In this document: one piece after another, positions 9,488 through 27,496 of the stretch
Layout of the letters: the number at the start of each line of letters is the position of its first letter
Numbering within the stretch: position 1 is the stretch's first letter
NCBI GenBank assembly: GCA_049515535.1
Contig: JBEKTZ010000010.1
Span: forward strand, 62,001-126,000
Length of the DNA: 64,000 nt
Direction of reading: 5' to 3'
Source of the DNA: Candidatus Aminicenantales bacterium
GTDB lineage: Bacteria > Acidobacteriota > Aminicenantia > Aminicenantales > UBA4085
Translations under genes and position numbers: made by a program
The notes under the pieces: generated by a model
The model's input: the letters and a program-made list of their open reading frames with translations, nothing else
What the model was told of the DNA's origin: nothing
The model's database searches: none

Positions 9488-9538
9488 GGCTCAATGATCC
9501 TCCTTTTTCCGGAATTTTGACGATGAAAGCACCGCCCC

Positions 9539-9568
9539 AATATAAAACCCGGCTCGGAAAGATGTCAA
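9539..9568 (-). promoter_or_regulatory. Sigma70-type promoter of the serine hydrolase
   Basis: TTGACA-N18-TATATT on the minus strand, with RBS GGAGG upstream of the ATG at 9487. Confidence 0.55.
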
Positions 9569-9671
9569 CGGCGGCTGGGGCCCCGGGCTTTGCCCGGGGG
9601 TCCACTTCCGCCGTACTCGCCCGTTGATATAAGACACGGGCGAGTGGCGAGCCGAAGGCTCGTCCCTTGAC
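9568..9671 (+). repeat. Structured ~104-bp dispersed repeat, copy 1
   Basis: ACGGCGGCTGGGGCCCCGGGCTTTGCCCGGGGGTCCACTTCCGCCGT-ACTCGCCCGT..ACGGGCGAGT-GGCGAGCC..GGCTCGTCCCTTGAC, nearly identical to the copies at 22957 and 25707. Confidence 0.95.
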
Positions 9672-9814
9672 TCGGCTGTGACGACGGATGATCTTCCATC
9701 GGCGATGAAGGATGACGTCCGATGACTTGAACCATCCGATTTAGAGTAGTACTCTTAGAAAACGGATGTAACCCGGGGAACAGGATACTTTAGCAGACGA
9801 GCTAAGGAGATGCC

Positions 9815-9913
9815 ATGAAAATAATGCGTTCGACGGCGGCTATTTTATTCTTATTGCTTTTCATCGGTACGAGTTGCGCCAGCGGACTTAAGGGATTGGA
9901 AAAGACATGCTGA
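9815..9913 (+). CDS. 32-aa small ORF with lipoprotein-like signal peptide (or gene remnant)
   Basis: AAGGAG RBS. Translates as MKIMRSTAAILFLLLFIGTSCASGLKGLEKTC. Its stop overlaps the start of the next gene. Confidence 0.4.
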   Translation: MKIMRSTAAILFLLLFIGTSCASGLKGLEKTC

Positions 9914-11031
9914 CCAAAACGATTGTCTTAAAAACAGGGTTCATAGTTTTTATTTCATTTTCCATCAGTCTCGCCGCCCAGATTCCGGCCTGGAAGGGCA
10001 AAATCTTAAACGAGGGCGGACAGGAGGTCGTCCGGAATCCCAAAGAGCCGATGTATCCTGGTCCGATTCTTGAAATCAAGGAGGATTGGTCGATCGGCGG
10101 AGCGAAAGCGGAAGGAGAGTCCGCATTTCGCGATGTCTCAAGCCTTGCGGTCGATCGTCGGGAATGCGTCTATGTTCTCGATCCGAAGGAATGTCAGGTC
10201 AAGGTTTTCGATTCCGGCGGGCGATATGTCCGCACGATTGGCCGGAAAGGCCAGGGGCCGGGCGAGATGCAATCTCCGAGGTCGATCCTCATCCACCCGG
10301 CCACCGGAAATCTTCTTATTCTTGACTTGGGAAAAAGAGGAATTTCATACTTCGACGACCAGGGAAAGTTCATCAAAACCGTATCTCTTATGGATACGAT
10401 CGGGATGTCGTTTCGCGTCGATTCGCGGGGCGGATTCGTTGTCCTGGCCGCCGTCTTTGACCCGGACAATCCGCATTATCTCGTCAAAAAATTCGATGCC
10501 GAACTAAAGAAGATCGGCGAATTGGCCAAGCTGCCTTCGCGGATTTCAAAGAATGGAGTCGTCAATCCTCTTCTCGCGACGCCCCGAATCGATATCGACA
10601 TCGATGACCGGATTCTTTTCAACAACAGCCTGGATTATGAAATTCAAATCGCCGGCGTCGACGGAAAAATCATCGGCCGATTCGGCCGGGCCTATGATCC
10701 GGTGAAAGTCACGGACGAGGACAAAAAGCCCTTCCTGAACCGGGACGATTCCGAAGTCACGATCAAATTCGAGGCGTTCCATGCGCCGATCCAAAGTTTT
10801 TTCGCCGACGATCGACATCATGTCCTGGTCAAAACATTTGAAAAAACGACGGATCGGAAACGAACCCTTCATGATGTCTTTGACAAACAGGGTCGTTTCT
10901 TAGGAAGGATTCCGCTTGTCGATACGCCGGTCATGATGAAAAGCAGAAAGCTCTATTCCATTGAAACCGACGAGGAAGGTTATCGGTTGATCCGGCGTTA
11001 TACGGCGACCTGGATGATGAAGGAAGAGTAG
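9907..11031 (+). CDS. Secreted 6-bladed beta-propeller (NHL-like) protein
   Basis: Signal peptide and the motif VKVFDSGGRYVRTIGRKGQGPGE. Confidence 0.8.
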   Translation: MLTKTIVLKTGFIVFISFSISLAAQIPAWKGKILNEGGQEVVRNPKEPMYPGPILEIKEDWSIGGAKAEGESAFRDVSSLAVDRRECVYVLDPKECQVKVFDSGGRYVRTIGRKGQGPGEMQSPRSILIHPATGNLLILDLGKRGISYFDDQGKFIKTVSLMDTIGMSFRVDSRGGFVVLAAVFDPDNPHYLVKKFDAELKKIGELAKLPSRISKNGVVNPLLATPRIDIDIDDRILFNNSLDYEIQIAGVDGKIIGRFGRAYDPVKVTDEDKKPFLNRDDSEVTIKFEAFHAPIQSFFADDRHHVLVKTFEKTTDRKRTLHDVFDKQGRFLGRIPLVDTPVMMKSRKLYSIETDEEGYRLIRRYTATWMMKEE

Positions 11032-11177
11032 TCGGACGTTGACGGGGGACTCACCGGCGGGAAACCCGCCTTGGGACCAACGGCGGACTCCCGTTGAGGT
11101 TCATCTGAAAGGATATCCCGGAGAAGGTTCCGGAGCGTGATCGGCTCCGGGATCAGGCCGCGCTTCGGGCCATGGAT

Positions 11178-11351
11178 TTACGGTGCCTGCGGCGGAGTGT
11201 CTATTTCCACTTCGATTTTTTCAAGGATGAGTTCCGTCCCATGAACGACTTCGAGGTCCGTCGAGGCGCAGGCGTGGCAGGCCATGACGAAATCGGCCCG
11301 GACGGTTTCGTTTCCGCAGGCCCGGCAGAGAACGGTAAATGGGAGTTTGAT
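11178..11351 (-). pseudogene. hypA: 3' fragment of hydrogenase nickel chaperone HypA/HybF
   Basis: IKLPFTVLCRACG...CHACASTDLEVVHGTELILEKIEVE matches the two CxxC motifs and G-x-EL C-terminus of HypA. The N-terminal MHE part is absent. Confidence 0.7.
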
Positions 11352-11580
11352 AACTTTTTCTATGCCAAGCGCTGCAATACGGTTTGAGGAGGGGGAAACC
11401 GAGAACCAAATGACCGTCAACTCCATCGAGAGAGCCTTTTCAGTCTCCGATAAGCGTCATCGCCTGTTGACGTTTTCGCGATCTGATTCCCTCGTCCGAG
11501 CCGGGCTTCCTCCGGTCTTTTCAGGGGAGACATGGACTTCTCCGTGACCTTGGCCCGTTTCTTGAGGCTTTTCTCCCGCC

Positions 11581-12477
11581 ATGGCGGGAGTCTATCGTCC
11601 TCGACATCCGGAGCGGGCCGTTCTCTATCGGGTGCTCTTCCCTCATTTCGAGAAGTTTGTCGCCGAGTACGAGGAGCGTTTCGAGCGGACCTCCGGCTAT
11701 TTCCGTCCTATCGTCAAGGATGTCGTCGAGCGATACCTCGACTGCGGCAATCCCCGCTGCGGATTCGCCCGGAGCCGCTGCCGGGCGGAACATCTTCTGA
11801 TGTTTTCGTGCAAGACCCGGGGGTTCTGTCTCCTGCCATGCCAAGCGGTTGGAGGAATGGAGCGAGTTGATGCGGGAGACGCTCTTTCTGGACGTGCCCC
11901 TCACCGCCAAGTGGTTTTCACGATCCCCAAGATGCTGCTGGTTTTCTTCAAGTTCAAGCGCCGGCTCCTGGGCGATCTTTGCCGCATCAGGACTGTATTG
12001 TCGTTGGAGAGGCTCGCGTTCCTGGAGCCCGAGGGCAAGGTCCGTTACCTATATGGACAGGACGCGCGCGACCAGGAAACGATGGATTATCTGGAGTTCA
12101 TCGCCCGGGTGACCTCGCATATCCCCGACAAGAGGCAGGTTATGGTGCGTTATTATGGCCTCTACGCCAACGCCCATCGGGGGAAGGTCCAGAAGGCCCT
12201 TGTCCCCTTCGCCCTGCGGATGGCCGAGGAGGACAAGAAGCGCATCCATTTCAAGGGCTGGGTAGCCATGATCCGGAAGGTCTATGAAGTGGACCCGCTG
12301 ATTTGCCCCCGATGCGGCGGGAGGATGAAGGTCGTCGCTTTCCTCACGAGTTATACCGTCGTGGACAGGATTATGGAGCATCTGAAGTTGACCTTTGTAG
12401 CCGAGAAGCCGCCGTCGGCGCATGTCTTCACCCAGGCCATACTCATCGAGTCAGATGAGCGGACGGAGTATTCTTAG
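11581..12477 (+). mobile_element. Decayed IS91-family (Y2/HUH) transposase
   Basis: Zn-binding N-terminus (YLDCG..GFAR..FSCKTRGFC), HRQVVFTIP, and C-terminal EFIARVTSHIP..VRYYGLY..VYEVDPLICPRCGG. The central HUH region is deleted and there is an apparent pair of compensating frameshifts. Confidence 0.8.
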
Positions 12478-12648
12478 GACGAGTGGTTTTGAGGGAGGAT
12501 GGGAGTCTATTGCCTTTTTGGGGGATTTTGCGGTTGCTCGGAACGATGATCTGGCCGGACGGCCTCCTTCGTAGCCATTCCCTCGAGAAAGAGGTTCATA
12601 AGTTTATTCTTTATCTTTATTATTATTTCTTTATTTAATTTTTTATCG

Positions 12649-13845
12649 CTATTTATAAAAAAGTGAATCAATCGTGATTTTTATTAATATTGATTTTTCT
12701 TTTAACCACCAGCTTTTCCATTTTTCGTAGTCAATGTCGATATTTTGTTTAGTAATTTTCTGTAAAACTTGATTGGCGCAATATCTGACCGAATACCAGT
12801 CTAATTTCAAGGCCTCAATCAAAGGATCGATCATACTGCCATCATCGAAGTTTTCCATCGCTTTAACAGCTTCAAGCTGGACTAATATGTCGGAATCGTG
12901 GATCATCATGATTAACGGCGGCAGAGCCTGTTTATCGGAGATTTTTCCAAGCGCCTTAGCTGTGTTGATCCGAACTTTTGGATTTTCATCATGGATCATT
13001 CTCGTGAGAGGTCCGACAGCGCGGACATCCTTTAAATTCCCCAACGCTTCTATTGCCTTTATTCTCATTTGTTCATCTTGATCTTCCAGGACTCCGACCA
13101 AAAAATAAAAGGCGTGAGAATCACCCAGCATGGCTAGCGCCGCGGCCGTATTGGCCCTGACTTTTCGATTTTTATCGTTCATCACGGCCAATAGAGGCTC
13201 AATTGCAGATGGATTGCCAAACCATCCTAGGGCTAAGGCCGCACTGGCCCGGACTTCATCGTTTTTATTATTCAACATCTTTATCAAGGGAATGACGGCG
13301 CGGGGATCTTTTATGACGGACAAAGCATTGATCGCGTTTCGTCGAACCAATGGATTCCTGTCTTTTAAGGCATCTATTAACGGCGCGACCCCATCCGGAT
13401 TCTTCATCAAGCCCAATATAGCCATGGCATTGAAGCGAAGAACATAGTCTTTTTTCAATAAATACTTTAATTTATCCATAACATAGGGGTTTTCGATTTT
13501 GGCGATAGTACGCACCGCCTCAGCAACTACATTAAGGCTGACATCGTTGAGGGCGTTAAATAAAAGCTCGATGGCCGGTTTTCCCTCTATTTTTCCGAGG
13601 GCGATAATCGCGTCTTGACGGACTTCCCAATTTCTATTTTCGAGGGCTATCGCCAATAACTCGACGGCTTGTGAATCATTCAATTTTCCGATAGCTTGAA
13701 CGGCGTCGATACAGACAGCTAAATCCCCGGACTTCAGCTTTTTTTTGAGTTCCTTATATTCGACGCCCTGGGCGAAGGCCATTCCAAATATGATAAATAA
13801 TGCCGATATATGGATTAGTGTTTTTCTCATCATTGATGCCCCCAT
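12649..13845 (-). CDS. Secreted HEAT/PBS-lyase repeat protein (AT-rich)
   Basis: Repeated VR..A..ALG.I.D.RAV.PLI units and a signal peptide. The true start may be 13833 or 13830. Confidence 0.85.
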   Translation of the reverse strand: MGASMMRKTLIHISALFIIFGMAFAQGVEYKELKKKLKSGDLAVCIDAVQAIGKLNDSQAVELLAIALENRNWEVRQDAIIALGKIEGKPAIELLFNALNDVSLNVVAEAVRTIAKIENPYVMDKLKYLLKKDYVLRFNAMAILGLMKNPDGVAPLIDALKDRNPLVRRNAINALSVIKDPRAVIPLIKMLNNKNDEVRASAALALGWFGNPSAIEPLLAVMNDKNRKVRANTAAALAMLGDSHAFYFLVGVLEDQDEQMRIKAIEALGNLKDVRAVGPLTRMIHDENPKVRINTAKALGKISDKQALPPLIMMIHDSDILVQLEAVKAMENFDDGSMIDPLIEALKLDWYSVRYCANQVLQKITKQNIDIDYEKWKSWWLKEKSILIKITIDSLFYK

Positions 13846-13863
13846 TCTAATCCCGACGAAGCC

Positions 13864-15702
13864 CTATCGGATCACCTGGCTCTCCGTGGCCACGACAAAG
13901 AATTTGTACTTATCGTAGGTCATGAAGATCTTCAACCGTGGGACTGGCCCCCCGGCGTCGATCCCTGAATAGGCGACAAGAATCTCGGAGCGCCAGGGGA
14001 AAAGGACTCCGTTCTTTTCGGTCTTGTACTCGTAGGTCATCAGAAAGTGCGGCCGGATGTTCAGGAAAGCGCACTCGTTCAGGATATCCTCATGGCCGTC
14101 GATCGGGACGCCCTCGATTTCGCATTTCAGAATCTGGAAGCCCGTCTTATCCACCCAGATCCGGGCCCACCATATGCCGTCCTCGTCCCCGGATTTGGGG
14201 GAGGCCGTCAGAATCAAGGCCTTTTTCCCATTGACCTTCTCTTCGCCGGCGATCCAGTAATCGAACTTGGGCTGGCGGTTCTTGGCCAGGACCTTGAGCG
14301 GAGCAAAGAGCGAGCCCAGCGCGGAAAACCTCCGGTCTTGCAAGACTTTCTTGGGGTCGGCGGGCTTCTTGCCGTTCTCCTTCAGGATAGTCCGGTGCTC
14401 TTCGACGATCTTGTCCTTCCTGAAGATCTGATAATCGCAGAGATAGATATTTCTTTTATCCCGCTTGGGATCGACATACTGAAACCATTGCTCTAATAAA
14501 AGCCGACCAACGACTTTTTGATCGTTAGCAACTAATCCTTTGTTGATCCGGTCGATAAACTCTGGATCCTCCTTCATATTTAAAGGTTTCTCCTGCTTAT
14601 CCGTCTTATCGGTTGTCACAACGGTAAGCTCTGCCCAACGGCGATTATTCAGCAGATCGTAATGGGTTTCTTGGATGGACTCCTCGCACACATAATCCGA
14701 GGCAACCGAGGCAAGCTTTTGACAATATTCGGCCGTTTGATCGAGCACTCGGCCCAGATCTTCCCGAGTCGTGGCGCTTGCCCCCGGAGGCGGGGTGACC
14801 TCCCAGGTTTTCTCTTGTCCGTAGAGCCAAGGATTGAAATCATATTCGAAGCGGAAGGCTGCCACGACAGGATTTCCTTTAATCCGGACAGGCTCGAACG
14901 TCCATTGCAGGAAAGCCTGCACGGCGACATAGTTTAAATAGGCATGGAGAGGTTTCTCCACGTCCACATGTCGGACGTTCCCTTTCTCGTCGATCGTGAT
15001 CCGAAGGCCGATCCGTCCCCCCATATTCCGCCGCCGCAGTTCTTCGGGGAAATAAGGCTGGACTTGGGTGAGGGATTTCGGCGAGGTGACATAATAGATC
15101 GTTTCCTTGACGGTTAGCGGCTTTTTATCGGGCGTCCCAATTGCTGCCCAAGCCAAAATGAAATAATCACCGCCCGGATTCGGCAGGCCGACGATGATCG
15201 GTTCACCGAGGTTGAGGACTAAGTCCTGCGCTACGACCGTCTCCGCTCCCGCCGCCGTCATGGTCCCAGCCGCGGTCTTGGCCCGATCGATGATGACGTG
15301 GAGGGCGATCTCTTGTGAAGAAAGCCTCTTCGGCGAAATCCTAATGTGGAAGGAAATTGTCTTTCCAAAAATCCAATCGTCCAAGAGAGAGACTTTCCCG
15401 TCCCACCCGGCTTCGTGCAGGAACAAGTCGTTGATGGCCTGCAAGTCGAATATTTTCAAAAGGGCTTCGAATGCGCTCGCCGTCAGCGCGGCTTCCGATC
15501 CGCCGAGGCCGGCCTTGAGCGAGGCCAGCTCCGGACGGGAAGCGTCCTGGAGTATTTCGACGGCCTTCAATCCCGCCTGGCCTTCCTCCCGGATGGCTTG
15601 GAAGAGGTGTAGGCAGATGACGATGGGATTCACGGTTTCGGCTTGGCAGGGAGGTAAAGATATTCCCAAAACGAGCAAAAGAAGCATAATTCTATTTCTC
15701 AT
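13864..15702 (-). CDS. Secreted protein with central TonB C-terminal domain
   Basis: PYFPEELRRRNMGGRIGLRITIDEKGNV...QWTFEP..KGNPV is a TonB_C pattern. Signal peptide present. Confidence 0.7.
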   Translation of the reverse strand: MRNRIMLLLLVLGISLPPCQAETVNPIVICLHLFQAIREEGQAGLKAVEILQDASRPELASLKAGLGGSEAALTASAFEALLKIFDLQAINDLFLHEAGWDGKVSLLDDWIFGKTISFHIRISPKRLSSQEIALHVIIDRAKTAAGTMTAAGAETVVAQDLVLNLGEPIIVGLPNPGGDYFILAWAAIGTPDKKPLTVKETIYYVTSPKSLTQVQPYFPEELRRRNMGGRIGLRITIDEKGNVRHVDVEKPLHAYLNYVAVQAFLQWTFEPVRIKGNPVVAAFRFEYDFNPWLYGQEKTWEVTPPPGASATTREDLGRVLDQTAEYCQKLASVASDYVCEESIQETHYDLLNNRRWAELTVVTTDKTDKQEKPLNMKEDPEFIDRINKGLVANDQKVVGRLLLEQWFQYVDPKRDKRNIYLCDYQIFRKDKIVEEHRTILKENGKKPADPKKVLQDRRFSALGSLFAPLKVLAKNRQPKFDYWIAGEEKVNGKKALILTASPKSGDEDGIWWARIWVDKTGFQILKCEIEGVPIDGHEDILNECAFLNIRPHFLMTYEYKTEKNGVLFPWRSEILVAYSGIDAGGPVPRLKIFMTYDKYKFFVVATESQVIR

Positions 15703-15774
15703 GGGAAGCTCCGATCATTACATCCTGTCCCCCATATCAACATACGTCGGGAAATCCCAATTTGTCAATTAATT

Positions 15775-15859
15775 TCAATAATATCGGTCCAGGGCCCGGT
15801 ATTGGATGGCCTCACTCAGGTGGGCGATGGTGATCCTCTCCCCACTGGCCAGGTCGGCG
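15775..15859 (-). pseudogene. comM: 3' terminal fragment of comM/yifB (Mg-chelatase-like ATPase)
   Basis: The minus strand reads ADLASGERITIAHLSEAIQYRALDRYY*, matching the conserved ComM end (RTIADL...HL.EAIQYR.LDR). The rest of the gene is missing. Confidence 0.75.
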
Positions 15860-15964
15860 CATGGTTATGTTGCCTTTTTGTCAATTAACCTTGAAGGGAA
15901 GAAAGCCGGTTTCCGGGCAAGAATACCCAGATTTCCTACGAACGTTTTTCGGTGACAGACAAAT

Positions 15965-16237
15965 CCCTTCTATGATTGCGAAACGCAAGTCCCCGGATCC
16001 ATTTCTTTTCTTTCCATCTTTCTTTATGACTGCCTCGGTCTTTTGAACCACCCTTCTATCCGCGCCTCCATGCGCACCATAACATTCGATCTTGGCTCCT
16101 AAACCTAAATTTGAACGCGACCCTTACGGGCCCGTTAGGGGTTAACCTAGGCAGCCGATTGTTTCCTGATTTCCGGAATATACTCTCTCCTCTCGGTCAG
16201 CACGCGATAAATAATGGTCAGTAATCGTGTCGCGGCT
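15965..16237 (-). mobile_element. IS110-family remnant: transposase C-terminal tail plus non-coding right end
   Basis: AATRLLTIIYRVLTERREY (16147-16237) resembles the IS110 tail A.ARKL..IIY.VL. It is followed by ~180 nt of non-coding sequence with ATAGAAGGG twice. Confidence 0.6.
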
Positions 16238-16273
16238 TTGACTTTGCCGCCCCCGGCATGATAAGAAAATGCC

Positions 16274-16693
16274 ATGCGGAAATTACGTTCTCTTCTTTTT
16301 GCGCTCATCATTCTGACCGGCTGCGGCATTCCGCCCGCGCCGGTCCAGGATGCGCCGCCCTTTTCGATCGTCTCTCCCGCGCAAGCCGCGGCCCTGATCG
16401 AATCTCACGCGAAGGCCGCGCATTTCACGATCCTCGACGTCCGCCGGGCGGAGGAATTCGCCTCGGGCCATTTGAAAAACGCCGTGCAAATCGACGTGAC
16501 CGCCGCGGACTTCGCGGACAGAATCGAAACGCTGAACAAGGCCGACATTTATCTCGTCTACTGCCGCGGCGGCGTCCGGAGCGCGCGGGCCATGGGCATC
16601 ATGAAAGACCATAGTTTTGCCGCCGTTTATAATCTCGAAGGCGGCCTGCTGAAATGGCAGTCCGAAAACCGCCCTGTCGTCAAGGACGAATAA
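16274..16693 (+). CDS. Rhodanese-like domain lipoprotein
   Basis: Lipobox LTGC, ILDVR..EEF..GHL, active-site YCRGGVRS and NLEGGL. Confidence 0.85.
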   Translation: MRKLRSLLFALIILTGCGIPPAPVQDAPPFSIVSPAQAAALIESHAKAAHFTILDVRRAEEFASGHLKNAVQIDVTAADFADRIETLNKADIYLVYCRGGVRSARAMGIMKDHSFAAVYNLEGGLLKWQSENRPVVKDE

Positions 16694-16706
16694 CGGGCCG
16701 GGCGGA

Positions 16707-17759: not shown

Positions 17760-17877
17760 GGGAATCTCCTTATGAATCCGTTGATCTTGAGTCGCGGAAT
17801 CGATTATCATCGACCTGAGCCCGAAATACAACTTAAAATTATTAAGGATCGCTGAAATCGCCCGGAAAATCGAGACC

Positions 17878-18945: not shown

Positions 18946-19023
18946 TTCTCGGCGGAAGGCGGATCCGCTGTCTTGACATTTCCTCCGAGTGTATTTAAGA
19001 ATGGGAGTCTCAAAACGAGGAAC

Positions 19024-19887: not shown

Positions 19888-19954
19888 TCGTTAAATAAAT
19901 CGGGCCGTCCAAGAGCGATGGGATGGAATGAACCCCGGCATTAAAGGAGCAGGC

Positions 19955-21502
19955 ATGATAAAGACAAGAAGATTTTTCGTCGCCCTTGCGGCGCTACTGT
20001 TGATGGCTTCGAGCGCGACGACCGCGATGGCCCAAGCCTGGATGAACCTGGCCCTGACTCGCGTGATCTACCTCTCCATGAAGAGCCAGGCCAAACCCCA
20101 GGGCGAGCTCAAAACGAAGATCGACGCTCTCGACAAGGACATCGCCGAGGCGGCCCGCGCGGGCCGGAGCGGCGAAGTTCGTCGCCTCTTGGCCAAGGGG
20201 ATGGCGCTCCTCGCGGGCCGCCCCTGGACCGACGAACTCGAGTTCTCCAACTCGCTGATCTTGCGGGCCGATGAGATCTATGTCGATTCGAGCCGTCCTT
20301 TCGCTATCCGCGTCGAACAGATTTACGCCCCGCACATCCTGTTGGCCGATTCTCTGGCGGTCCGGGTCTCCCTGCACACGCCCGAGCGCGGCGCGCTCGG
20401 CGTTCGCGCGGGAGCAAAATTGAAGGATCTCGCGGCGCAGGACGGCGTGAGTCGCGATTTCCTGGACGAGCCGTGCCGCGTCGATCTCGACCTTTCGGAC
20501 GCCGAGGACGGGACCTATCTTCTCCGGGCTGAAATTCTGGAGAAAGAAAAATCCCTCGGCGCGGCCACTCTTCTCGTCGATCTGCGGAAAGGCTTGACGG
20601 AGCGGCTTCGCTCGCTCGAAACCGAACTCAAGAAGATCAACGGATTCGATGCCGTCCGCCCCGACGTCCTGTATCCGCTCGATTTCATCCGGAACGTGAA
20701 CCGCGGGCGCATCGAGATCGGAACCTTCCAGATCGTCCCCGAACTGAAAGCCGCCGAAGACGTCCTGGCCTCGATCAAAGCGGGAAAAGACCCCTTCGCG
20801 GGCAGGACCGGCGACATGGAGAGGCACTACCTCTTGGAAGGCGCGAACGAGATCATGCCCTATCGGGTTTACCTGCCGAAGAAATACGACGGTCGGGCAG
20901 CCTTCCCTCTGATCATCGCCTTGCACGGTCTCGGCGCCACCCAGGACTCGTTCTTCGATTCCTATGGAAAAGAGTTTCCCAAGCTCGCCGAGGAACACGG
21001 ATATATCGTCGCAGCGCCGCTCGGTTATCGCGTGGACGGCGCCTATGGAAGGGTTCTGTTCGGCAATCCCGGAAACCCGATGGTCGCTCGCAAACTCGAG
21101 TTCAGCGAAAAAGACGTCATGAACGTCCTGGCCTTGATGCAGAAAAATTACAAAATCGACGAATCCCGGATCTACCTGACGGGCCACTCCATGGGGGCCA
21201 TAGGGACTTGGTATCTGGGCGCGAAATACCCGGAGATCTGGGCGGCCCTGGCGCCGTTTTCGGGGTCCGCGAATCCTTCGACCGTGGCCGCGATGAAACG
21301 CATCCCTGAAATCGTCGTCCACGGGGACGCGGACCCGACGGTCCCCGTGCTCGCTTCACGGGCGATGGTCGCCGAGATGAAGAAGCAGGGCGTCGAGCAC
21401 GTTTACATCGAGGTTCCCGGCGGGAACCACCTCAACGTCGTGACGCCGAACTTCGCGGCCGTTTTCGATTTCTTCGACAAACACCGCAAGAAGACGTCTT
21501 AG
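19955..21502 (+). CDS. Secreted alpha/beta-hydrolase (esterase/PHB-depolymerase-like) with N-terminal extension
   Basis: PLIIALHG, GHSMG nucleophile, HGDADPTV and GGNH. AAGGAG RBS. Confidence 0.8.
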   Translation: MIKTRRFFVALAALLLMASSATTAMAQAWMNLALTRVIYLSMKSQAKPQGELKTKIDALDKDIAEAARAGRSGEVRRLLAKGMALLAGRPWTDELEFSNSLILRADEIYVDSSRPFAIRVEQIYAPHILLADSLAVRVSLHTPERGALGVRAGAKLKDLAAQDGVSRDFLDEPCRVDLDLSDAEDGTYLLRAEILEKEKSLGAATLLVDLRKGLTERLRSLETELKKINGFDAVRPDVLYPLDFIRNVNRGRIEIGTFQIVPELKAAEDVLASIKAGKDPFAGRTGDMERHYLLEGANEIMPYRVYLPKKYDGRAAFPLIIALHGLGATQDSFFDSYGKEFPKLAEEHGYIVAAPLGYRVDGAYGRVLFGNPGNPMVARKLEFSEKDVMNVLALMQKNYKIDESRIYLTGHSMGAIGTWYLGAKYPEIWAALAPFSGSANPSTVAAMKRIPEIVVHGDADPTVPVLASRAMVAEMKKQGVEHVYIEVPGGNHLNVVTPNFAAVFDFFDKHRKKTS

Positions 21503-21567
21503 GGAAAAAGACTCCGATCATCCATCGCCCGGGGAAAGCGGCGCCTAAAATCCGAAGGCCGGGAATA

Positions 21568-22548
21568 TCACGCTTTCCCGAGGACGATCGCCAGAAGCGC
21601 CATGCGGACGTACAAGCCGTACTCCATTTGGCGGAAATAGGCCGCGCGGGGATCGTCGTCAAAATCCATGCTGATCTCCGTGACGCGCGGCAGGGGATGC
21701 ATGACGATCATCTCTTTCTTGGCGGCCTTCATGATGTCGGGCTTGATCACATAGGCCCCCTTGACCTTCTCGTACGCTTCAGGATCCTCGAATCGCTCTT
21801 TCTGGACGCGCGTGACATAGAGCACGTCCGTTTTGGGCAGCACTTTATCGAGCGAAGTGTATTCTTTTTGCGGGATCCCCTTGGCCGCGACCTCGTCCAT
21901 GACGTCCCGGGGCATACGGAGGATGTCGGGCGAAACGTAATTCAGCTTGATGCCGCCGAACTGCGTGAGCAGGCGGGACAGCGAATGCACGGTCCGCCCG
22001 TATTTCAGGTCGCCGAGCATCGTGACGGTTAGATCATCGAGCCGCCCCAATTCTTCGCGGATCGTGAAGGTGTCGAGCAAGGCCTGCGTCGGGTGTTCGC
22101 CCACCCCGTCGCCCGCGTTGATGACGGGTTTTCGGGCGTGCTTCGCGGCGAGCGCCGCCGATCCGACTTCGGGATGGCGCAACACGATCACGTCGGCGTA
22201 GCAGCCCAGCGTCCGGACCGTATCGGGGAGGCTTTCGCCCTTCGCCACAGAGGAGTACTTCACCTCGCTGATCGGGATGACCGCGCCGCCGAGGCGCTGC
22301 ATCGCCGCCATGAACGACGCCGCCGTTCGCGTGGACGGCTCGTAGAACAAGTTCGCCAGGATTTTGCCCTTCAGCAGGTCGAACGTGCCGATCCGCTCGA
22401 CCATGATCCGCATCTCGTGGGCCACGCCGAAAATGTATTCCAGGTCGGCGCGGCTGAACTGCTTGACCGACAGGATATCTTTTCCGTACCAGGGGGCCGT
22501 CCGCTGGTCGCCGAACGGGAGATGGGGGTTTTTGGATTTGGTGGGCAT
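21568..22548 (-). CDS. pyrB: Aspartate carbamoyltransferase catalytic subunit
   Basis: [44 protein letters not shown] and MHPLPR. Confidence 0.97.
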
Positions 22549-22661
22549 GGTCACTCCTTGCTTTACGGCCTTGCGGCTATTTCACGATCCAAAATTTCTT
22601 TTTGATCTCATCCGGAAAAGAGCCGTGGCGAGGCAGATGCATGGGACTCAAAAAAACGGGC

Positions 22662-22841
22662 TTATTGTGACTCGCCGGATCCCGGATTCTGAGTCACGCC
22701 CTCGGCTGGGGCTTCTTCGCCCGTTTCCGGGGCCGGCGTTTCGCCGCGCAGGCGTTTCAGCCTTTTTTCCTCCCGCTTTTTCAAGCGGTCCAGCTCTTTG
22801 TTTCTCTTCGCACTCTTATAGGCCCGGTTGTTCTTTGCCAA
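22662..22841 (-). CDS. Small basic-then-acidic hypothetical protein (59 aa)
   Basis: AAAGGAGG RBS and TTG start. Reads MAKNNRAYKSAKRNKELDRLKKREEKRLKR followed by an acidic tail. Confidence 0.65.
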   Translation of the reverse strand: MAKNNRAYKSAKRNKELDRLKKREEKRLKRLRGETPAPETGEEAPAEGVTQNPGSGESQ

Positions 22842-22956
22842 GCGGCCCTCCTTTCTTATCGCCGCCATCATAAAACAACTCGGGGGCGAGCCGCAAGGAT
22901 TTCTTGCGGACGGCGGGCGTCCCGCGAACGTCCCTTATTCTTGACAGGAATTCTCC

Positions 22957-23060
22957 ACGGCGGCTGGGGCCCCGGGCTTTGCCCGGGGGTCCACTTCCGC
23001 CGTACTCGCCCGTGCATATAAGCTCCGGGCGAGTGGCGAGCCCTTGGCTCGTCCCTTGAC
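22957..23060 (+). repeat. Structured ~104-bp dispersed repeat, copy 2
   Basis: Same three-hairpin element as at 9568. It is followed by a partial repeat of its 3' end (AAGGCCCGTCCCTTGAC, 23071-23087). Confidence 0.95.
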
Positions 23061-23082
23061 TTCCGCCGCGAAGGCCCGTCCC

Positions 23083-23112
23083 TTGACATGGGATACATTC
23101 TCCCACTAAGAT
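23083..23112 (+). promoter_or_regulatory. Sigma70-type promoter of the spermidine-synthase-like gene
   Basis: TTGACA-N18-TAAGAT. The -35 box is supplied by the repeat-like CCCTTGAC end. Confidence 0.5.
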
Positions 23113-23163
23113 TTCGACGTTTGAAGCGGGGCCGGTTCCCGCCCAAGGAATCGCCATTACGCC

Positions 23164-25638
23164 ATGAATAGACAAGACCCTGTTCTCTCCTCGAGCGGTT
23201 CCGTCCCAAGCCGTTATTTGCCTCTTCTGCTGGGAGCGTTCGCGGCCAGCGGCTGCGCCGCCTTGATTTACGAGATCGTCTGGTTCCAGGTGCTGGAAAT
23301 GGTCATCGGATCGACCGCGGTCTCCATGGCCGTGCTGTTGGGGACCTATATGGGAGGCATGAGCCTCGGCAGCCTCTTCCTGCCCCACCTCATTTCGGCC
23401 CGCCGGCACCCCTTGCGCGTTTACGCCGGACTCGAGATAGGAATCGGCGCGCTCGGACTCGCGGTCCTATTCGGCATGCCGTCCGTCGTCCGATTCTACA
23501 CGGCGACCGCGGGGCATGGATTCGCGGGAATCCTGCTTCGCGGCGCGGTCAGCGCTATATGCCTGCTGCTCCCGACCATGCTGATGGGCGCGACGCTGCC
23601 GGCCCTCTCGCGATGGGTCGAGCTGACGCCCCGCGGCGTTTCGTGGCTGGGCTTCTTCTACGGCGGGAACACGACCGGAGCCGTATTCGGAAGCCTGCTG
23701 GCCGGGTTTTATCTCCTGCGGTTGCATGACATAACGACGGCGACTTATGTCGCCGCTTCGATTAACGGAGGCGTGGCGTTGCTCGGCCTCGGCTTGGCGG
23801 CCGGAACGCGCGACTTCCGTCCGTCGGACTGGCAGGATCGGGATCGAGCGACGCGTCTCCGCGGCGCCTGGCCGGTGCTGATCGTGATCGGCCTGTCGGG
23901 CTTCTGCGCGCTGGGCGCCGAAGTGATCTGGACGCGCCTATTGTCGTTGATGTTGGGAGGAACGGTCTACACGTTTTCCATCATTTTGGCCGTTTTCCTG
24001 GCGGGGCTGGGGATCGGTAGCGGCCTCGGCTCGTATCTGACGCGCCGGACCGCGCGCCCGCGATCGGCGCTGGGATCCGCTCAGCTCTTTCTGATCGCGG
24101 CCATCGCCTTGGCCGCTTTTATGCTGGCCAAAATCCTGCCCTATTGGTCGATCCGTTACGCGTCAACCGGACATTTATGGTCCAACTTTTTCATGGACGT
24201 CGTGCGCTGTCTTTGCGCCGTATTCCCGCCGGCGCTTCTCTGGGGAGCGAGTTTCCCGCTGGCCCTGGCCGCCGTCGCGCCTCAGGCGCACGACCCGGGA
24301 CGGTTGGTCGGGAGAGTCTATGCCGCCAACACGGCCGGGGCCATCGTCGGCGCCATCGGATTCAGCCTGGTTTTCATTCCCGCGCTGGGCACGCGGCATT
24401 CCCAAAGGCTGATGATCGGATTTTCCGCCGCCGCCGCGCTTCTGGCCTTCGCGCCATATCTGCGGCGGAACCGGCCCCGGACCAGCCTCGCGGACGGACT
24501 TCAAGAGCGTCGGCCTAAAATTTCTCCCGCGATCCGGTTGGCGGCCGGGGCGATCCTCGCCGCGGTTTTAGCCTGGAGCGTGCCCCAGGTTCCCTGGGAA
24601 TTGATCGCGTATGGCCGAAAACTGCCCGAGCGGCTCGGCGAAGCGCAATTGCTCTACGTCGGCGAAGGCATGAATTCCTCGGTCGCGGTCACCCAATTGG
24701 ACAACGACGTGCGGCGTTTCCATGTCAGCGGCAAGGTGGAGGCCTCGAGCGATCCGGCGGACATGCGGGTGCAGCGCATGCTCGGGCACGTCCCGGCCCT
24801 CTTCCATGCGAACCCCCGCACGGTCCTCGTCGTGGGTTGCGGAGCGGGCGTGACCGCCGGTTCGTTCGTGCTCTACTCCGGAGTGAAGAGGATCGTGATC
24901 TGCGAGATCGAGCCGCTGATTCCCAAGGTCGTGGCCCGCTACTTCGGGGAGCAGAATTACGACATGCTGGACGATCCCCGGGTCGAAGTGGTTTACGATG
25001 ACGCCCGGCATTTCATTCTCACCACGAAAGAGACCTTCGACATCATCACCTCCGACCCGATCCATCCCTGGGTCAAGGGCTCCGCCGCCCTTTATACCGA
25101 GGAATATTTCGAGTTGTGCAAGCGGCATTTGAATCCGGGCGGCATCATCGCCCAGTGGGTCCCTTTGTACGAGAGCACCATGGAGGCCGTCAAAAGCGAG
25201 ATCGCGACGTTTTTCGACGTCTATCCCTTCGGGACGATATGGAGCAACGACATCGTCGGCGTCGGCTACGATGTCGTGCTCATCGGGCAGGAGGACGCCC
25301 TCCGGATCGATTTGGACGCGCTCCAAGAGCGGTTGGATCGCGAAGACCATAAGGCCGTCGGCTGGTCGATCGGCGAAGTGGGGTTTTCGTCGGCGGTGGA
25401 TCTCGTCTCGACATATGCCGGGCAGGCGCCCGATCTGGGACCGTGGCTGAAGGGCGCGGAGATCAACCGGGATCGGAACCTGCGGCTGCAATACCTGGCG
25501 GGGATGGGGTTGAACTTACAGCAAAGCTTGGGCATTTATGAAGATTTGCTGAAATACGACCGATTTCCCAAGGACCTCATTGTCGGATCGGAAAAAAAGA
25601 TGCAGGCCCTCAAGCGACTGCTCGGACAGATTAAATAA
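23164..25638 (+). CDS. Fused membrane (MFS-like)/spermidine synthase domain protein
   Basis: Two SG..AL.YE..W membrane repeats and a SAM-binding VLVVGCGAG..CEIE..DDARH..DIITSDP domain. Confidence 0.85.
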   Translation: MNRQDPVLSSSGSVPSRYLPLLLGAFAASGCAALIYEIVWFQVLEMVIGSTAVSMAVLLGTYMGGMSLGSLFLPHLISARRHPLRVYAGLEIGIGALGLAVLFGMPSVVRFYTATAGHGFAGILLRGAVSAICLLLPTMLMGATLPALSRWVELTPRGVSWLGFFYGGNTTGAVFGSLLAGFYLLRLHDITTATYVAASINGGVALLGLGLAAGTRDFRPSDWQDRDRATRLRGAWPVLIVIGLSGFCALGAEVIWTRLLSLMLGGTVYTFSIILAVFLAGLGIGSGLGSYLTRRTARPRSALGSAQLFLIAAIALAAFMLAKILPYWSIRYASTGHLWSNFFMDVVRCLCAVFPPALLWGASFPLALAAVAPQAHDPGRLVGRVYAANTAGAIVGAIGFSLVFIPALGTRHSQRLMIGFSAAAALLAFAPYLRRNRPRTSLADGLQERRPKISPAIRLAAGAILAAVLAWSVPQVPWELIAYGRKLPERLGEAQLLYVGEGMNSSVAVTQLDNDVRRFHVSGKVEASSDPADMRVQRMLGHVPALFHANPRTVLVVGCGAGVTAGSFVLYSGVKRIVICEIEPLIPKVVARYFGEQNYDMLDDPRVEVVYDDARHFILTTKETFDIITSDPIHPWVKGSAALYTEEYFELCKRHLNPGGIIAQWVPLYESTMEAVKSEIATFFDVYPFGTIWSNDIVGVGYDVVLIGQEDALRIDLDALQERLDREDHKAVGWSIGEVGFSSAVDLVSTYAGQAPDLGPWLKGAEINRDRNLRLQYLAGMGLNLQQSLGIYEDLLKYDRFPKDLIVGSEKKMQALKRLLGQIK

Positions 25639-27496
25639 AGCGGAAAGCGCTCTCGCTCATTCGCTCCGATGCCCAGACGTTCGTCCTGACACGGGGAAGC
25701 GATTCGACGGCGGCCGGGGCCCCGGGCTTTGCCCGGGGGTCCGCTTCCGCCGTACTCGCCCGTGGATATAAGCCACGGGCGAGTGGCGAGCCAGAAGGCT
25801 CGTCCCTTGACGGCCGAAACGAAAAAGACAAGTTGTCCGGCGCCGGTTTCGCCGGAGAAACGATCCAGAAACCGGAAACCGGTTTCTCGGCAACGGAGAA
25901 TTCCTCTTGGGCCGCAAGAAGGACCTTCTTTCCGCCGTCGACCAGCGCGACCATCACCGTATACGTTCCGGGCGGAAATTTTTCGAGAGGAAACGCCTCG
26001 AGAAAATCCCGGTCGTTATCGTATTCCCGGACGTTCTTGCGCAAGGTCTGCACCGTCCGCCGGCCGTCGGAAAACGAATATTCCAAAAGACCTCCGTCCC
26101 GCAATTCCCGGCTCAGGCCATAGATCTGGAAGAACAGAAACAGCCGGTCCTTTTTTGAGAACACGCGATCGAGCGACGGATAAATCCACCGTTTTCCAGC
26201 CTGGAAAGCCCCTCCGGCCGGATTCGAGGAGACCTCTTCGAAAACCTTCCCGGCAAAAAGGAGAGGGCTCATCCCCGGGATTTGTCCATCGGGAATCTCG
26301 ATGCTTTTCTCGATCGAGGTGAATTCCTTCGCGGCGGCGTTTTCCAGAACAAGGCGGAAGACGTAATTCCCCGGGCGGGCGGAACAGAAATCATACAGTT
26401 GGCAGGCATTCCCGCCGAGGATCTTCATTTCTTCTTTTTTCAAATCGATCGTCACGCGACGTTCCCGCTCGAAAGCGATCTTCCCGGCCGCATCGGTCAA
26501 CCGGACGGACGCTTTCAAGTCGGCTTGATATCGATCCCCGGACGAAATGAACGTCAGGGCGTCCGGGGCCAGGGCGTAATGCACGGAGAAAAGGCCCGAA
26601 GCGTCTTGAAGGGCGATCATTTTGAACTGATTCCCGACGCGATGAAGGGCATAATTCACGTCTCCGGCCGTTCTCGTCTTCACGAAATCCGAAACATAGC
26701 CCCCGCGGACGATTCGATAGGGATAGGATTCGATGTCGCCCAAGAAGGATTTGAACATCCCGGCGTGACGAGAGTCCACCGCTCCCGGGACGAAAGAAAG
26801 CGCGGCCTCAGCCAATTCGGGGGAAACGAAATTCCTTAAAAAAACATACGCTTGCCGATCCGGAGCCGCCCAGCTTTCGGGGAAATCGCCGGCCAGGGGA
26901 CTCGCTTCATCGAGCATTTTTTTTAATTCTTCGATCTCCGATTTCATCGCGGCGGCGGGGACCAGGCTTTTGGGCCCGTCGGCGATGGGATCGTAGAGGA
27001 CGAACTCTCCGCGGCCTTGCCTTTTAAAAAATAAAAACCGGAACGTGGAAACACCCCCGATCCCGGGAAGCCCGGCATACGTCCAAACCTCGACGGGATA
27101 GATCCGGACGGAAACGAAATCGTGTACGTCGACCGGCAACCCCAGCTTGATGTAAATCCTTCCCCGCTCTGAATTCCAGCCGTCCGTCGGCTTGCCTCGC
27201 CCGAACATGGCGTTCACGACGGCGATTCTCCGTTCGTGTTCTTCCCGGTATTCATTCCGGGGCGTGCCGGGCGTCGGATCCCGCTGCCGCCAGAATTCCT
27301 TGATGAAGAGATCCCTGTCTCCGTCCGTCCCCAGCCCGGCGAAGGCTTCTTTTTCCTGCGGGGTGATGATATAGGCGACCTCCTCGTTCATCCACGTCGC
27401 GTACTGTTTCGGCAGCGCGGGGCTTTTCGCCGCGGAAAGCGCCGCGGGCAGGGCCAAGGATAAGAAAAGAAGGACGGCGAAAATTTTATTCTTCAA
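25631..27496 (-). CDS. GWxTD-domain protein; 3' end runs through repeat copy 3
   Basis: W..EEVAYII..E...F..L...RD.FI..FW..RDPTP.TP.NE..EH..R and GWNSERGRIYI.LG.P. Confidence 0.85.
   Translation of the reverse strand: MKNKIFAVLLFLSLALPAALSAAKSPALPKQYATWMNEEVAYIITPQEKEAFAGLGTDGDRDLFIKEFWRQRDPTPGTPRNEYREEHERRIAVVNAMFGRGKPTDGWNSERGRIYIKLGLPVDVHDFVSVRIYPVEVWTYAGLPGIGGVSTFRFLFFKRQGRGEFVLYDPIADGPKSLVPAAAMKSEIEELKKMLDEASPLAGDFPESWAAPDRQAYVFLRNFVSPELAEAALSFVPGAVDSRHAGMFKSFLGDIESYPYRIVRGGYVSDFVKTRTAGDVNYALHRVGNQFKMIALQDASGLFSVHYALAPDALTFISSGDRYQADLKASVRLTDAAGKIAFERERRVTIDLKKEEMKILGGNACQLYDFCSARPGNYVFRLVLENAAAKEFTSIEKSIEIPDGQIPGMSPLLFAGKVFEEVSSNPAGGAFQAGKRWIYPSLDRVFSKKDRLFLFFQIYGLSRELRDGGLLEYSFSDGRRTVQTLRKNVREYDNDRDFLEAFPLEKFPPGTYTVMVALVDGGKKVLLAAQEEFSVAEKPVSGFWIVSPAKPAPDNLSFSFRPSRDEPSGSPLARGLYPRASTAEADPRAKPGAPAAVESLPRVRTNVWASERMSESAFRFI
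25707..25811 (+). repeat. Structured ~104-bp dispersed repeat, copy 3
   Basis: Same element, with a T-A to C-G compensatory change in hairpin 1. Confidence 0.95.

What the first reader, a model, noticed from the sequence alone, without database searches (positions are those of the whole stretch)
9568..25811. Three copies of a ~104-bp three-hairpin element showing covariation: candidate new structured RNA or non-autonomous ssDNA mobile element
Seen: copies at 9568-9671, 22957-23060 and 25707-25811, all on the + strand, in unrelated contexts and with sharp ends (ACGGCGG...CCCTTGAC). Hairpin 1 is ACGGCGG/CCGCCGT enclosing CCCCGGGC-TTT-GCCCGGGG, and its T-A pair (copies 1, 2) becomes C-G in copy 3. 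Hairpin 2 is ACTCGCCCG/CGGGCGAGT with a conserved ATATAAG loop and variable closing bases. Hairpin 3 is CGAGCC/GGCTCG with a free loop (GAA, CTT, AGAA). Differences fall only in loops, loop-closing bases or compensating pairs, and G-T pairs favour the + strand. There are no shared terminal IRs or target duplications. Known: IS200/IS605 ends and REP elements are single-stranded hairpins processed by HUH transposases and make no TSD. Inference: a PATE/REP-like element mobilised in trans, or a repeated ncRNA. I do not recognise it as a known family.
Basis: partly seen in the sequence, partly recalled or inferred. Interest (0 to 1): 0.82.

Follow-up and report, generated by a model that had tools for sequence, protein, structure and literature searches.

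The report
Small mobile hairpin repeat of Aminicenantes
The three look-alike stretches are copies of a small, abundant, hairpin-forming mobile DNA element of uncultured Aminicenantes bacteria that jumps without its own transposase gene, even into genes in frame; it is a new family of a known kind, not a new RNA.

Summary
All three copies are real. They belong to a family of more than 110 copies in this 3.45-Mb genome: 52 long (104 nt), 61 short (65 nt) and some nested copies. The family occurs in only two Aminicenantes families (8 of 151 class genomes).

It is mobile DNA:
- Contigs from three other metagenomes skip copy 1 by exactly 102 nt.
- Three short copies inside genes (GluRS, AFOR, an aconitase-family enzyme) are exact 21-aa insertions missing from 11/11, 7/7 and 7/7 orthologues.
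- Copies are nested in one another.

Insertion follows TC[G/C]AC and makes no duplication; there are no terminal inverted repeats. In 86 of 113 copies the top strand lies on the G-rich strand, independent of gene direction. This points to single-strand (IS200/IS605-type, HUH) transposition in trans.

No parent IS was found. None of 39 Y1-transposase loci carries the element, and the genome's one RAYT has a different repeat.

There is no Rfam match and no link to gene direction, so an RNA role is unlikely.

Earlier notes of this scan describe what appears to be the same family elsewhere in this genome. Verdict: new member of a known kind.

The parts
9568..9671 (+). Copy 1, long form. The mobile unit is 102 nt (9568-9669 or 9570-9671; the dinucleotide AC cannot be assigned to one end). 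Hairpin 1 spans 9568-9614, with its inner 8-bp stem at 9581-9599. Hairpin 2 spans 9615-9645. Hairpin 3 and the tail ending TTGAC span 9646-9671.
   Evidence: Contigs of runs X2, X4 and X7 join 9567 to 9670 and skip exactly 102 nt.
22957..23060 (+). Copy 2, long form.
   Evidence: Contigs of the sister populations run into it from both flanks, so it is present there too (table 8).
23061..23087 (+). Extra 27-nt tail module (TTCCGCCG...CCCTTGAC) directly behind copy 2. It matches the 3' remainder of a short-form copy split by a nested insertion. Six long copies in the genome carry this piece.
25707..25811 (+). Copy 3, long form, 105 nt (one extra A in the loop of hairpin 3). It lies in frame, antisense, within the 3' part of ORF 25631-27496 (-).
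22910..22945 (+). Possible degenerate, internally deleted family member (head ACGGCGG, tail ...GTCCCTT..TTGAC).
   Evidence: Read by eye only; not tested.

Best explanation
The three stretches are copies of a non-autonomous mobile DNA element family of Aminicenantes.

Forms. The mobile unit is 63 nt (short: hairpin 1 plus a 19-nt tail) or 102 nt (long: with hairpin 2 and the 5' arm of hairpin 3 added). Nested and composite forms also exist. Both unit lengths are multiples of three, and five of the six frames of the short form are open, so copies that land in genes survive as 21- or 34-residue inserts.

Shown. The family is abundant. Copies are present or absent at otherwise identical sites. 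They insert directly 3' of TC[G/C]AC without duplicating the target. They have no terminal inverted repeats. Their top strand lies preferentially on the G-rich strand.

Inferred, about 55-60% likely. The top strand is excised and inserted as single-stranded DNA at the replication fork (lagging-strand template). The enzyme would be an HUH/Y1 tyrosine transposase supplied in trans. It would bind the GC-rich hairpins and cut after the left-flank TC[G/C]AC and after the element's own terminal TTGAC, as IS200/IS605 TnpA does.

Open. The enzyme is not identified.

Confidence that this is mobile, non-coding selfish DNA is about 0.93. The figure given below is for the whole statement, mechanism included.
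For: Abundance and spread:
- 126 blastn hits in the genome, 51 of them full length. They class as 52 long, 61 short, 8 nested or composite and 6 without a tail.
- The family is found in 14 of 41 relatives (9 of 22 genera) at up to 97% identity, and in 8 of 151 genomes of the class, all in two families.
- All 45 exact-pattern hits in genome contigs are in metagenome-assembled genomes. Most are labelled Aminicenantes/Aminicenantia, and a few carry Acidobacteria, Spirochaetes or Eubacteriales labels.

Mobility:
- Contigs from 3 of the 4 runs laid, each from a different study, skip copy 1 by exactly 102 nt, with a 2-nt ambiguity at the joint.
- GluRS carries a 21-aa / 63-nt insertion that is missing in 11/11 orthologues at protein level and 6/6 at DNA level.
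- AFOR and an aconitase-family gene each have an exact 21-aa gap in 7/7 orthologues.
- In three cases a long copy sits inside hairpin 1 of a short copy, right after ...GGTCCAC.
- 16 pairs of copies are identical, while mean pairwise identity is 91-92%.

Target and ends:
- In the 5' flank of long copies, position -3 is T in 44/52, position -2 is C in 47/52, and position -1 is G or C in 46/52. Short copies give 41/61, 53/61 and 54/61. The 3' flank shows no conservation.
- The same 5' flank is seen in 40 copies from 7 other genomes: 26, 32 and 36 of 40.
- The terminal dinucleotides do not covary (1 of 41), so there is no target duplication.

Single-strand signature:
- Element strand agrees with the sign of local GC skew in 86/113 copies (p = 2e-8). 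The result holds for windows of +-5 to +-40 kb. Genes agree with skew in only 52%, and element strand agrees with local gene direction in 55/113.
- Hairpin 3 ends 9 nt before the cut. This compares with 10 nt at the IS608 right end (PMC3201880, passages) and 8 nt in the resident IS200.
- The resident 607-nt IS200 inserts 3' of TTGAC and itself ends in TTGAC. It carries GC-rich 8-bp hairpins of similar build.
- IS200/IS605 members insert into the lagging-strand template and read their cleavage sites through guide bases next to the hairpin foot (PMC5027513, passages).

Structure: stems vary less than loops (minor-allele fraction 0.052 against 0.095), and 12 of 39 pairs show compensatory changes.
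Against: - No parental IS carries these ends. G000 has only two Y1 genes. One is an IS200 with an in-frame TAA and different ends and target (TTGAC). The other is a RAYT-like gene flanked by a different 27-nt repeat.
- None of the 39 Y1 loci examined, in G000 and 29 other genomes, has the element within about 1.5-2 kb.
- Canonical IS200-type TnpA does not co-occur with the element. It is found in 4 of 14 element-positive genomes and 8 of 27 element-negative ones.
- TnpB was not found in G000.
- The short form lacks hairpin 3, so it has no hairpin at IS608-like distance from the right cut. The left cut lies only 8-11 nt from the hairpin foot, against 18-19 nt in IS608 and the resident IS200.
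- Replication direction is inferred from GC skew on contigs of a draft assembly, not from a mapped origin.
- The joints have short sides (24-28 nt) and come from assembled contigs, not reads.
- The wobble-pair test for a preferred strand is not significant (61 against 46).
Confidence: 0.58

Rival explanations
1. An orphan element moved by an enzyme that is not a recognisable Y1 transposase, or one no longer encoded in these genomes. Examples would be another HUH protein, a recombinase acting on hairpins, or a helper carried on a plasmid or phage. The strand bias would reflect that enzyme's own link to replication.
For: No Y1 gene carries the element at its flanks (39 loci), and the element does not co-occur with IS200-type TnpA. 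Orphan palindromic repeat families with no dedicated transposase are on record: the CGTC-tagged REPs, which include Rickettsia RPEs (PMC3733652, abstract and passages). Copies in two different bacterial families are 94-95% identical, which would fit a travelling helper.
Against: The element pattern gave no hit in viral contigs. Every structural feature matches the IS200/IS605 style: left-flank-only target, no duplication, same-strand hairpins, skew-linked orientation. Draft genomes are incomplete and often lose multi-copy IS.
Confidence: 0.2
2. A REP/REPIN-type repeat maintained by the genome's single-copy RAYT-like gene (G000 C13:96162-97226), which would serve two repeat families.
For: An intact RAYT-like Y1 gene is present in G000, and such genes occur in nearly all relatives (37 of 41). 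Long persistence with a conserved sequence across genera is typical of REPIN-RAYT systems (bioRxiv 10.1101/2021.07.10.451892, abstract as listed).
Against: That gene is flanked by its own inverted 27-nt GTAG-containing repeat, which forms five inverted doublets elsewhere and is unrelated to this element. The element has no GTAG tag, does not form inverted doublets, and 33 of 113 copies lie inside ORFs. RAYT-like genes are equally present in genomes without the element.
Confidence: 0.12
3. A family of structured non-coding RNAs or cis-regulatory RNA modules (5'-UTR element, terminator or stabiliser), with its sequence kept by selection on RNA function.
For: The fold is very stable and conserved, with some compensatory changes. 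Two consensus G.T pairs lie on the + strand. Several copies sit just upstream of a ribosome-binding site and start codon.
Against: Orientation is unrelated to gene direction: 55/113 locally. Among intergenic copies the downstream gene is co-oriented in 43 of 80 where one is known. 33 of 113 copies lie inside ORFs, on either strand. Copies are present or absent between close populations. No Rfam family reaches threshold; the best E-value is 0.11. The opposite strand folds nearly as well.
Confidence: 0.05
4. A conventional MITE moved as double-stranded DNA by a DDE transposase, with a 2-bp (AC) target duplication.
For: AC stands at both ends of 72 of 113 copies. DDE-type or other IS genes exist in the genome: an IS1-like gene and two IS110-family genes.
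Against: There are no terminal inverted repeats. When an end dinucleotide deviates from AC, the other end does not follow (1 of 41). Only the left flank is conserved. The IS110 loci share nothing with the element. DDE MITEs are not known to show a replication-linked strand bias of this strength (recalled, not checked).
Confidence: 0.04

Closest known systems
PATEs (palindrome-associated transposable elements): ends-only derivatives of IS200/IS605 insertion sequences
   Same: Short and non-coding, with subterminal hairpins on one strand. No terminal inverted repeats and no target duplication. Inserts 3' of a short specific sequence that abuts only the left end. The right end finishes in a similar pentanucleotide (TTGAC). 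Orientation follows replication. Presumed to be moved in trans (definition from PMC7290912 passages).
   Different: No IS200/IS605 with these ends was found. The resident IS200 has a different target (TTGAC) and different ends. The short form has no hairpin near the right cut. At 63-102 nt the element is far smaller than the roughly 271-nt PATE described in PMC7290912. Copy number is very high, and many copies sit in frame inside genes.
REP / BIME / REPIN elements mobilised by RAYT tyrosine transposases
   Same: High-copy GC-rich hairpin repeats with a modular mosaic architecture, a likely HUH-type single-strand mechanism, and persistence across related genera.
   Different: No GTAG tag, no inverted doublets, and not restricted to extragenic DNA (33 of 113 copies in ORFs). 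The only RAYT-like gene in the genome is flanked by a different repeat.
CGTC-tagged REPs, including Rickettsia palindromic elements (RPE) and Neisseria dRS3 (PMC3733652)
   Same: Orphan palindromic repeats with no dedicated transposase. Some lie inside protein-coding genes without breaking the frame (PMC3733652 abstract and passages; here).
   Different: No unpaired CGTC tag next to an 8-9-bp stem that opens with A-T pairs; the stems here are all G-C. The taxon is different (Acidobacteriota, class Aminicenantia). This family also shows a defined left-flank target and a strand bias, which the passages read do not mention (the term 'lagging' occurs 0 times in that paper).
IS608 / ISDra2 (IS200/IS605 family) single-strand 'peel and paste' transposition
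   Same: [quoted passage not shown]
   Different: The element carries no tnpA. The distance from the left cut to the hairpin foot is 8-11 nt, against 19 nt in IS608. Guide-base pairing could not be derived with any confidence.

Membership tests
PATE (IS200/IS605 ends-only element) | Subterminal hairpins on the same strand, with no terminal inverted repeats | tested here: met
   Folds, alignment of 66 copies, and the ends read.
PATE (IS200/IS605 ends-only element) | No target-site duplication | tested here: met
   Empty and filled sites differ by exactly 63 nt and 102 nt. The end dinucleotides do not covary (1 of 41).
PATE (IS200/IS605 ends-only element) | Specific tetra- or pentanucleotide target abutting the left end only | tested here: met
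   TC[G/C]AC lies at the 5' flank in G000 and in 7 other genomes. The 3' flank is not conserved.
PATE (IS200/IS605 ends-only element) | [quoted passage not shown] | tested here: met
   86 of 113 copies agree with GC skew (p = 2e-8). Replication direction is inferred from skew only.
PATE (IS200/IS605 ends-only element) | Ends identical to those of a full-length IS200/IS605 that encodes TnpA | tested here: not met
   The two Y1 genes in G000 have other ends. None of the 39 Y1 loci examined carries the element. TnpB was not found.
REP/REPIN-RAYT system | RAYT gene flanked by the repeat | tested here: not met
   The RAYT-like gene on C13 is flanked by a different 27-nt inverted repeat.
REP/REPIN-RAYT system | Conserved GTAG tag at the foot of the hairpin; inverted doublets | tested here: not met
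   The consensus contains no GTAG. Adjacent copies are head-to-tail or nested, not inverted.
CGTC-tagged REP / RPE | Unpaired CGTC tag at one end of an 8-9-bp stem that begins with A-T pairs | tested here: not met
   In the long form, the CG of the one CGTC lies inside the stem of hairpin 3. The stems are all G-C. Criteria taken from PMC3733652 passages.
CGTC-tagged REP / RPE | Copies inside ORFs that keep the reading frame | tested here: met
   33 of 113 copies lie in predicted ORFs. 3 of 3 tested are exact 21-aa insertions.
MITE (DDE-type) | Terminal inverted repeats and a target-site duplication | tested here: not met
Any Rfam RNA family | Covariance-model score at or above the gathering threshold | tested here: not met
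   The whole window gave 0 hits. The permissive search gave a best hit of 20 bits against a 67.9-bit cut-off, with best E-value 0.11.

The most novel reading that the evidence does not exclude
This is an orphan single-strand transposon family with no cognate IS. It would be kept moving in several Aminicenantes genera by cross-mobilisation, either by the resident TTGAC-specific IS200 TnpA or by a single-copy RAYT/TIRYT-like enzyme that has a different cognate repeat. If so, it would offer a tractable model for an old question: how transposase-less palindromic repeats that sit inside genes (RPE / CGTC-type REPs) are propagated.
Probability: 0.25. Interest if true: 0.65.

Novelty: new member of a known kind. 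Interest (0 to 1): 0.45.

Why it matters
The family makes up a visible share of the intergenic DNA of an uncultured, environmentally widespread lineage. It breaks metagenome assemblies: contigs of the sister populations stop at its copies. It adds 21- or 34-residue loops to essential enzymes such as glutamyl-tRNA synthetase.

It is also a clean natural case for study. It has a defined target, no duplication, a replication-linked strand bias and presence/absence polymorphism. That makes it useful for asking how tiny hairpin elements with no transposase gene of their own are mobilised.

For annotation, recognising the family prevents three errors: false 'novel RNA' calls, false promoter calls at its TTGAC end, and mis-called ORFs.

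Tried and rejected
- Rfam: nothing reached threshold, at gathering cut-offs for the whole window or permissively around copy 1.
- Autonomous parent. Five HP1+HP2 copies without a tail (plus a sixth, 23-nt HP1 fragment) have no common downstream gene; they are truncated copies. Genes lying between nearby copies are ordinary; the one between copies 2 and 3 is a spermidine-synthase-like membrane protein. Flanks of 31 Y1 loci and 8 more show no element.
- Other candidate enzymes. TnpB was not found in G000. The two IS110-family loci share nothing with the element.
- Hairpin 2 as an independent repeat: only one convincing stand-alone look-alike was found (C8:45009-45039), and the other hits look like chance.
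- -35 promoter reading of the terminal TTGAC: there is no orientation bias towards downstream genes, and in several copies the start codon lies within about 20-35 nt of the end.
- Viral contigs: the element pattern gave 0 hits.
- RNA evidence: no RNA holder was listed for the stretch, so expression could not be examined.
- Run X3 showed no joint skipping copy 1. Its other joints link different copies of the repeat and were read as repeat confusion.
- Literature. Searches for Aminicenantes with 'repeat' and with palindromic / miniature inverted / REPIN / insertion sequence listed no paper describing this family. PMC4381525 was checked by term search and is unrelated.
- One of the five folds (L089:660-790) missed the element by a coordinate slip. 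It serves only as an unplanned non-element control (z +1.7).
Full report
**Observation.** The three stretches at 9568-9671, 22957-23060 and 25707-25811 (all +) are nearly identical over 104-105 nt. Similarity stops sharply at ACGGCGG... and ...CCCTTGAC. The 19-nt core of hairpin 1 occurs three times per strand in the window, against 0.11 matches expected by chance. Energies are -41.4 to -47.4 kcal/mol with z -7.3 to -8.0. The opposite strand of copy 1 folds nearly as well (-39.3 kcal/mol, z -7.1). Rfam has nothing at gathering thresholds for the whole window. A permissive search around copy 1 gave only far-sub-threshold hits.

**The family.** The window is G000:C10:62001-126000 of a 3.45-Mb, 32-contig draft genome with 56.8% G+C.
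- blastn finds 126 hits, 51 of them full length.
- Sorting the 127 hits to hairpin 1 gives 52 long copies (104 nt), 61 short copies (65 nt: hairpin 1 followed directly by CGAAGGCTCGTCCCTTGAC), 8 nested or composite copies and 6 without the tail.
- A sub-variant carries a different hairpin 2 whose stem differs by paired changes.
- Only three family members lie in this window.
- In relatives, the family is found in 14 of 41 genomes (9 of 22 genera) at up to 97% identity.
- Across the class it is found in 8 of 151 genomes, all in two families of one order.
- All 45 exact-pattern hits in genome contigs lie in metagenome-assembled genomes. Most are labelled Candidatus Aminicenantes/Aminicenantia, and a few carry Acidobacteria, Spirochaetes or Eubacteriales labels.
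- Earlier notes of this scan (e1-1449649, e1-4997402, e1-1449651) describe what appears to be the same or a related family on other pieces of this genome. This finding is therefore not the scan's first sight of it.

**It is mobile DNA.**
1. Contigs of related populations from four other metagenomes were laid on 9000-26500. Contigs of three runs (X2, X4, X7; three studies) join 9567 to 9670. They skip exactly 102 nt with a 2-nt ambiguity, at depths matching the flanks. Two caveats apply: the sides of these joints are short (24-28 nt), and these are assembled contigs, not reads. Copies 2 and 3 are present in those populations.
2. My own ORF calls place 33 of 113 copies inside ORFs, in frame. All three cases tested are clean lineage-specific insertions.
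   - Glutamyl-tRNA synthetase carries 21 extra residues that are missing in 11 of 11 orthologues. The DNA gap is exactly 63 nt in 6 of 6.
   - An aldehyde:ferredoxin oxidoreductase and an aconitase-family enzyme each have an exact 21-residue gap in 7 of 7 orthologues.
3. In three places a long copy sits inside hairpin 1 of a short copy, exactly after ...GGTCCAC, with the rest of the outer copy following it. Three more long copies, window copy 2 among them (23061-23087), carry only that 27-nt remainder.
4. Copies average 91-92% identity, and 16 pairs are identical.

**Insertion rule.**
- The 5' flank is conserved. In long copies, position -3 is T in 44/52, position -2 is C in 47/52, and position -1 is G or C in 46/52. 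Short copies give 41/61, 53/61 and 54/61. The 3' flank is not conserved.
- Forty copies from seven other genomes show the same flank.
- AC stands at both ends, but the two ends do not covary (1 of 41 informative copies). The size differences between empty and filled sites are 63 and 102 nt.
- The unit is therefore 63 or 102 nt, inserted 3' of TC[G/C]AC without duplication, and it ends in TTGAC. There are no terminal inverted repeats.
- Hairpin 1 itself contains TCCAC, which explains the self-nesting.

**Strand bias.** The element's top strand agrees with the sign of local GC skew in 86 of 113 copies (p = 2e-8). The result is stable for windows from +-5 to +-40 kb. On contig C5, element orientation flips where the skew flips. 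Genes agree with skew in only 52%, and element strand agrees with local gene direction in 55 of 113. By established knowledge (recalled), the G-rich strand is the one that serves as lagging-strand template. IS200/IS605 elements insert there (PMC5027513, passages).

**Mechanism.** The following features are the signature of IS200/IS605-type single-strand 'peel and paste' transposition, and of its ends-only derivatives, the PATEs (PMC7290912, PMC3201880, passages):
- a left-flank-only target
- no duplication
- no inverted ends
- hairpins on one strand
- a right end finishing in a pentanucleotide similar to the target
- hairpin 3 ending 9 nt before the cut
- the replication-linked orientation

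The genome's own 607-nt IS200 behaves in the same style. It sits 3' of TTGAC inside an IS1-like gene, ends in TTGAC, and has 8-bp GC hairpins 18 nt and 8 nt from its cuts. Its ends and target differ from the element's, and its tnpA carries an in-frame TAA. The same IS is 93-95% identical in two other genera.

I could not identify the mobilising enzyme.
- G000 has only two Y1 genes. The second is a RAYT-like gene flanked by its own unrelated 27-nt GTAG-containing inverted repeat, which forms five doublets elsewhere.
- None of the 39 Y1 loci examined carries the element.
- IS200-type TnpA is found in 4 of 14 element-positive genomes and 8 of 27 element-negative ones.
- TnpB was not found, and the IS110 loci are unrelated.

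The single-strand HUH mechanism is therefore an inference, at about 55-60%. Membership of the PATE class fails on its defining criterion, an identifiable parent IS.

**Structure and the RNA alternative.** On 66 distinct long copies from eight genomes, 93.4% of cells in 39 proposed pairs are paired. Twelve pairs show a double change, against 4.4 in shuffles (0/500 reach 12) and 3-8 in slid controls. Stems vary less than loops. The hairpins are thus under constraint, as expected if the transposition machinery reads them.

The T-A/C-G example is unpaired in 49 of 66 copies. The G.T argument for the + strand is not significant (61 against 46).

An RNA function is unlikely for four reasons:
- copies sit in either orientation relative to genes and inside ORFs
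- copies are polymorphic between populations
- they match no Rfam family
- the terminal TTGAC cannot serve as a -35 box where the start codon follows within about 20-35 nt

No RNA run was available.

**Comparison and novelty.** The closest known kinds are:
- PATEs, which share the mechanism style but have an identifiable parent IS, whereas none was found here.
- REP/BIME/REPIN elements, from which this family differs in having no GTAG tag, no inverted doublets and many intragenic copies.
- The transposase-less CGTC-tagged REPs, including Rickettsia RPEs, which also sit inside genes (PMC3733652, abstract and passages). This family lacks their tag.

Two literature searches listed no description of this family. 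I rate it a new member of a known kind, of moderate interest. Its value lies in offering a clean, polymorphic, target-specific example of an orphan hairpin element in an uncultured lineage.

Noticed in passing
L032:1358-1384 and 2400-2426 (G000 C13:96187-96213 and 97229-97255), flanking the gene at C13:96162-97226: A RAYT-like Y1 gene (about 312-355 aa) is flanked by inverted copies of a 27-nt GTAG-containing repeat. The same repeat forms five inverted doublets on contigs C16, C11, C18, C4 and C7. This is a separate, small REPIN/TIRtron-like system, unrelated to the element studied here.
   Followed up: partly
L097:197-803 (G000 C9:107896-108502, minus strand): A 607-nt IS200 is inserted 3' of TTGAC inside an IS1-like transposase gene. 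Its right end also finishes in TTGAC, and its tnpA has an in-frame TAA. Copies 93-95% identical occur in genomes G014 and G012. Its 20-nt hairpin occurs alone at seven more places in G000.
   Followed up: partly
window 9720-16232: Contigs of runs X2 and X7 join 9719 to 16233. About 6.5 kb carrying five genes is therefore absent from those sister populations, or was gained here. The segment starts 50 nt from copy 1.
   Followed up: no
window 25631-27496 (-): A GWxTD-family ORF of 621 aa. Similarity to its roughly 700-aa paralogues and homologues stops at residue 561, which is the right edge of copy 3. The gene looks 3'-truncated at the element.
   Followed up: partly
window 22910-22945: A 36-nt stretch with the family's head (ACGGCGG) and a tail-like end (..GTCCCTT..TTGAC). 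It may be a degenerate, internally deleted copy just upstream of copy 2.
   Followed up: no
G000 C10:21164-21294, C10:26290-26420 and C1:88854-88983 (outside the window): A variant of about 131 nt has a different hairpin 2 (stem changed by paired substitutions) followed by a second inner hairpin-1 module.
   Followed up: partly
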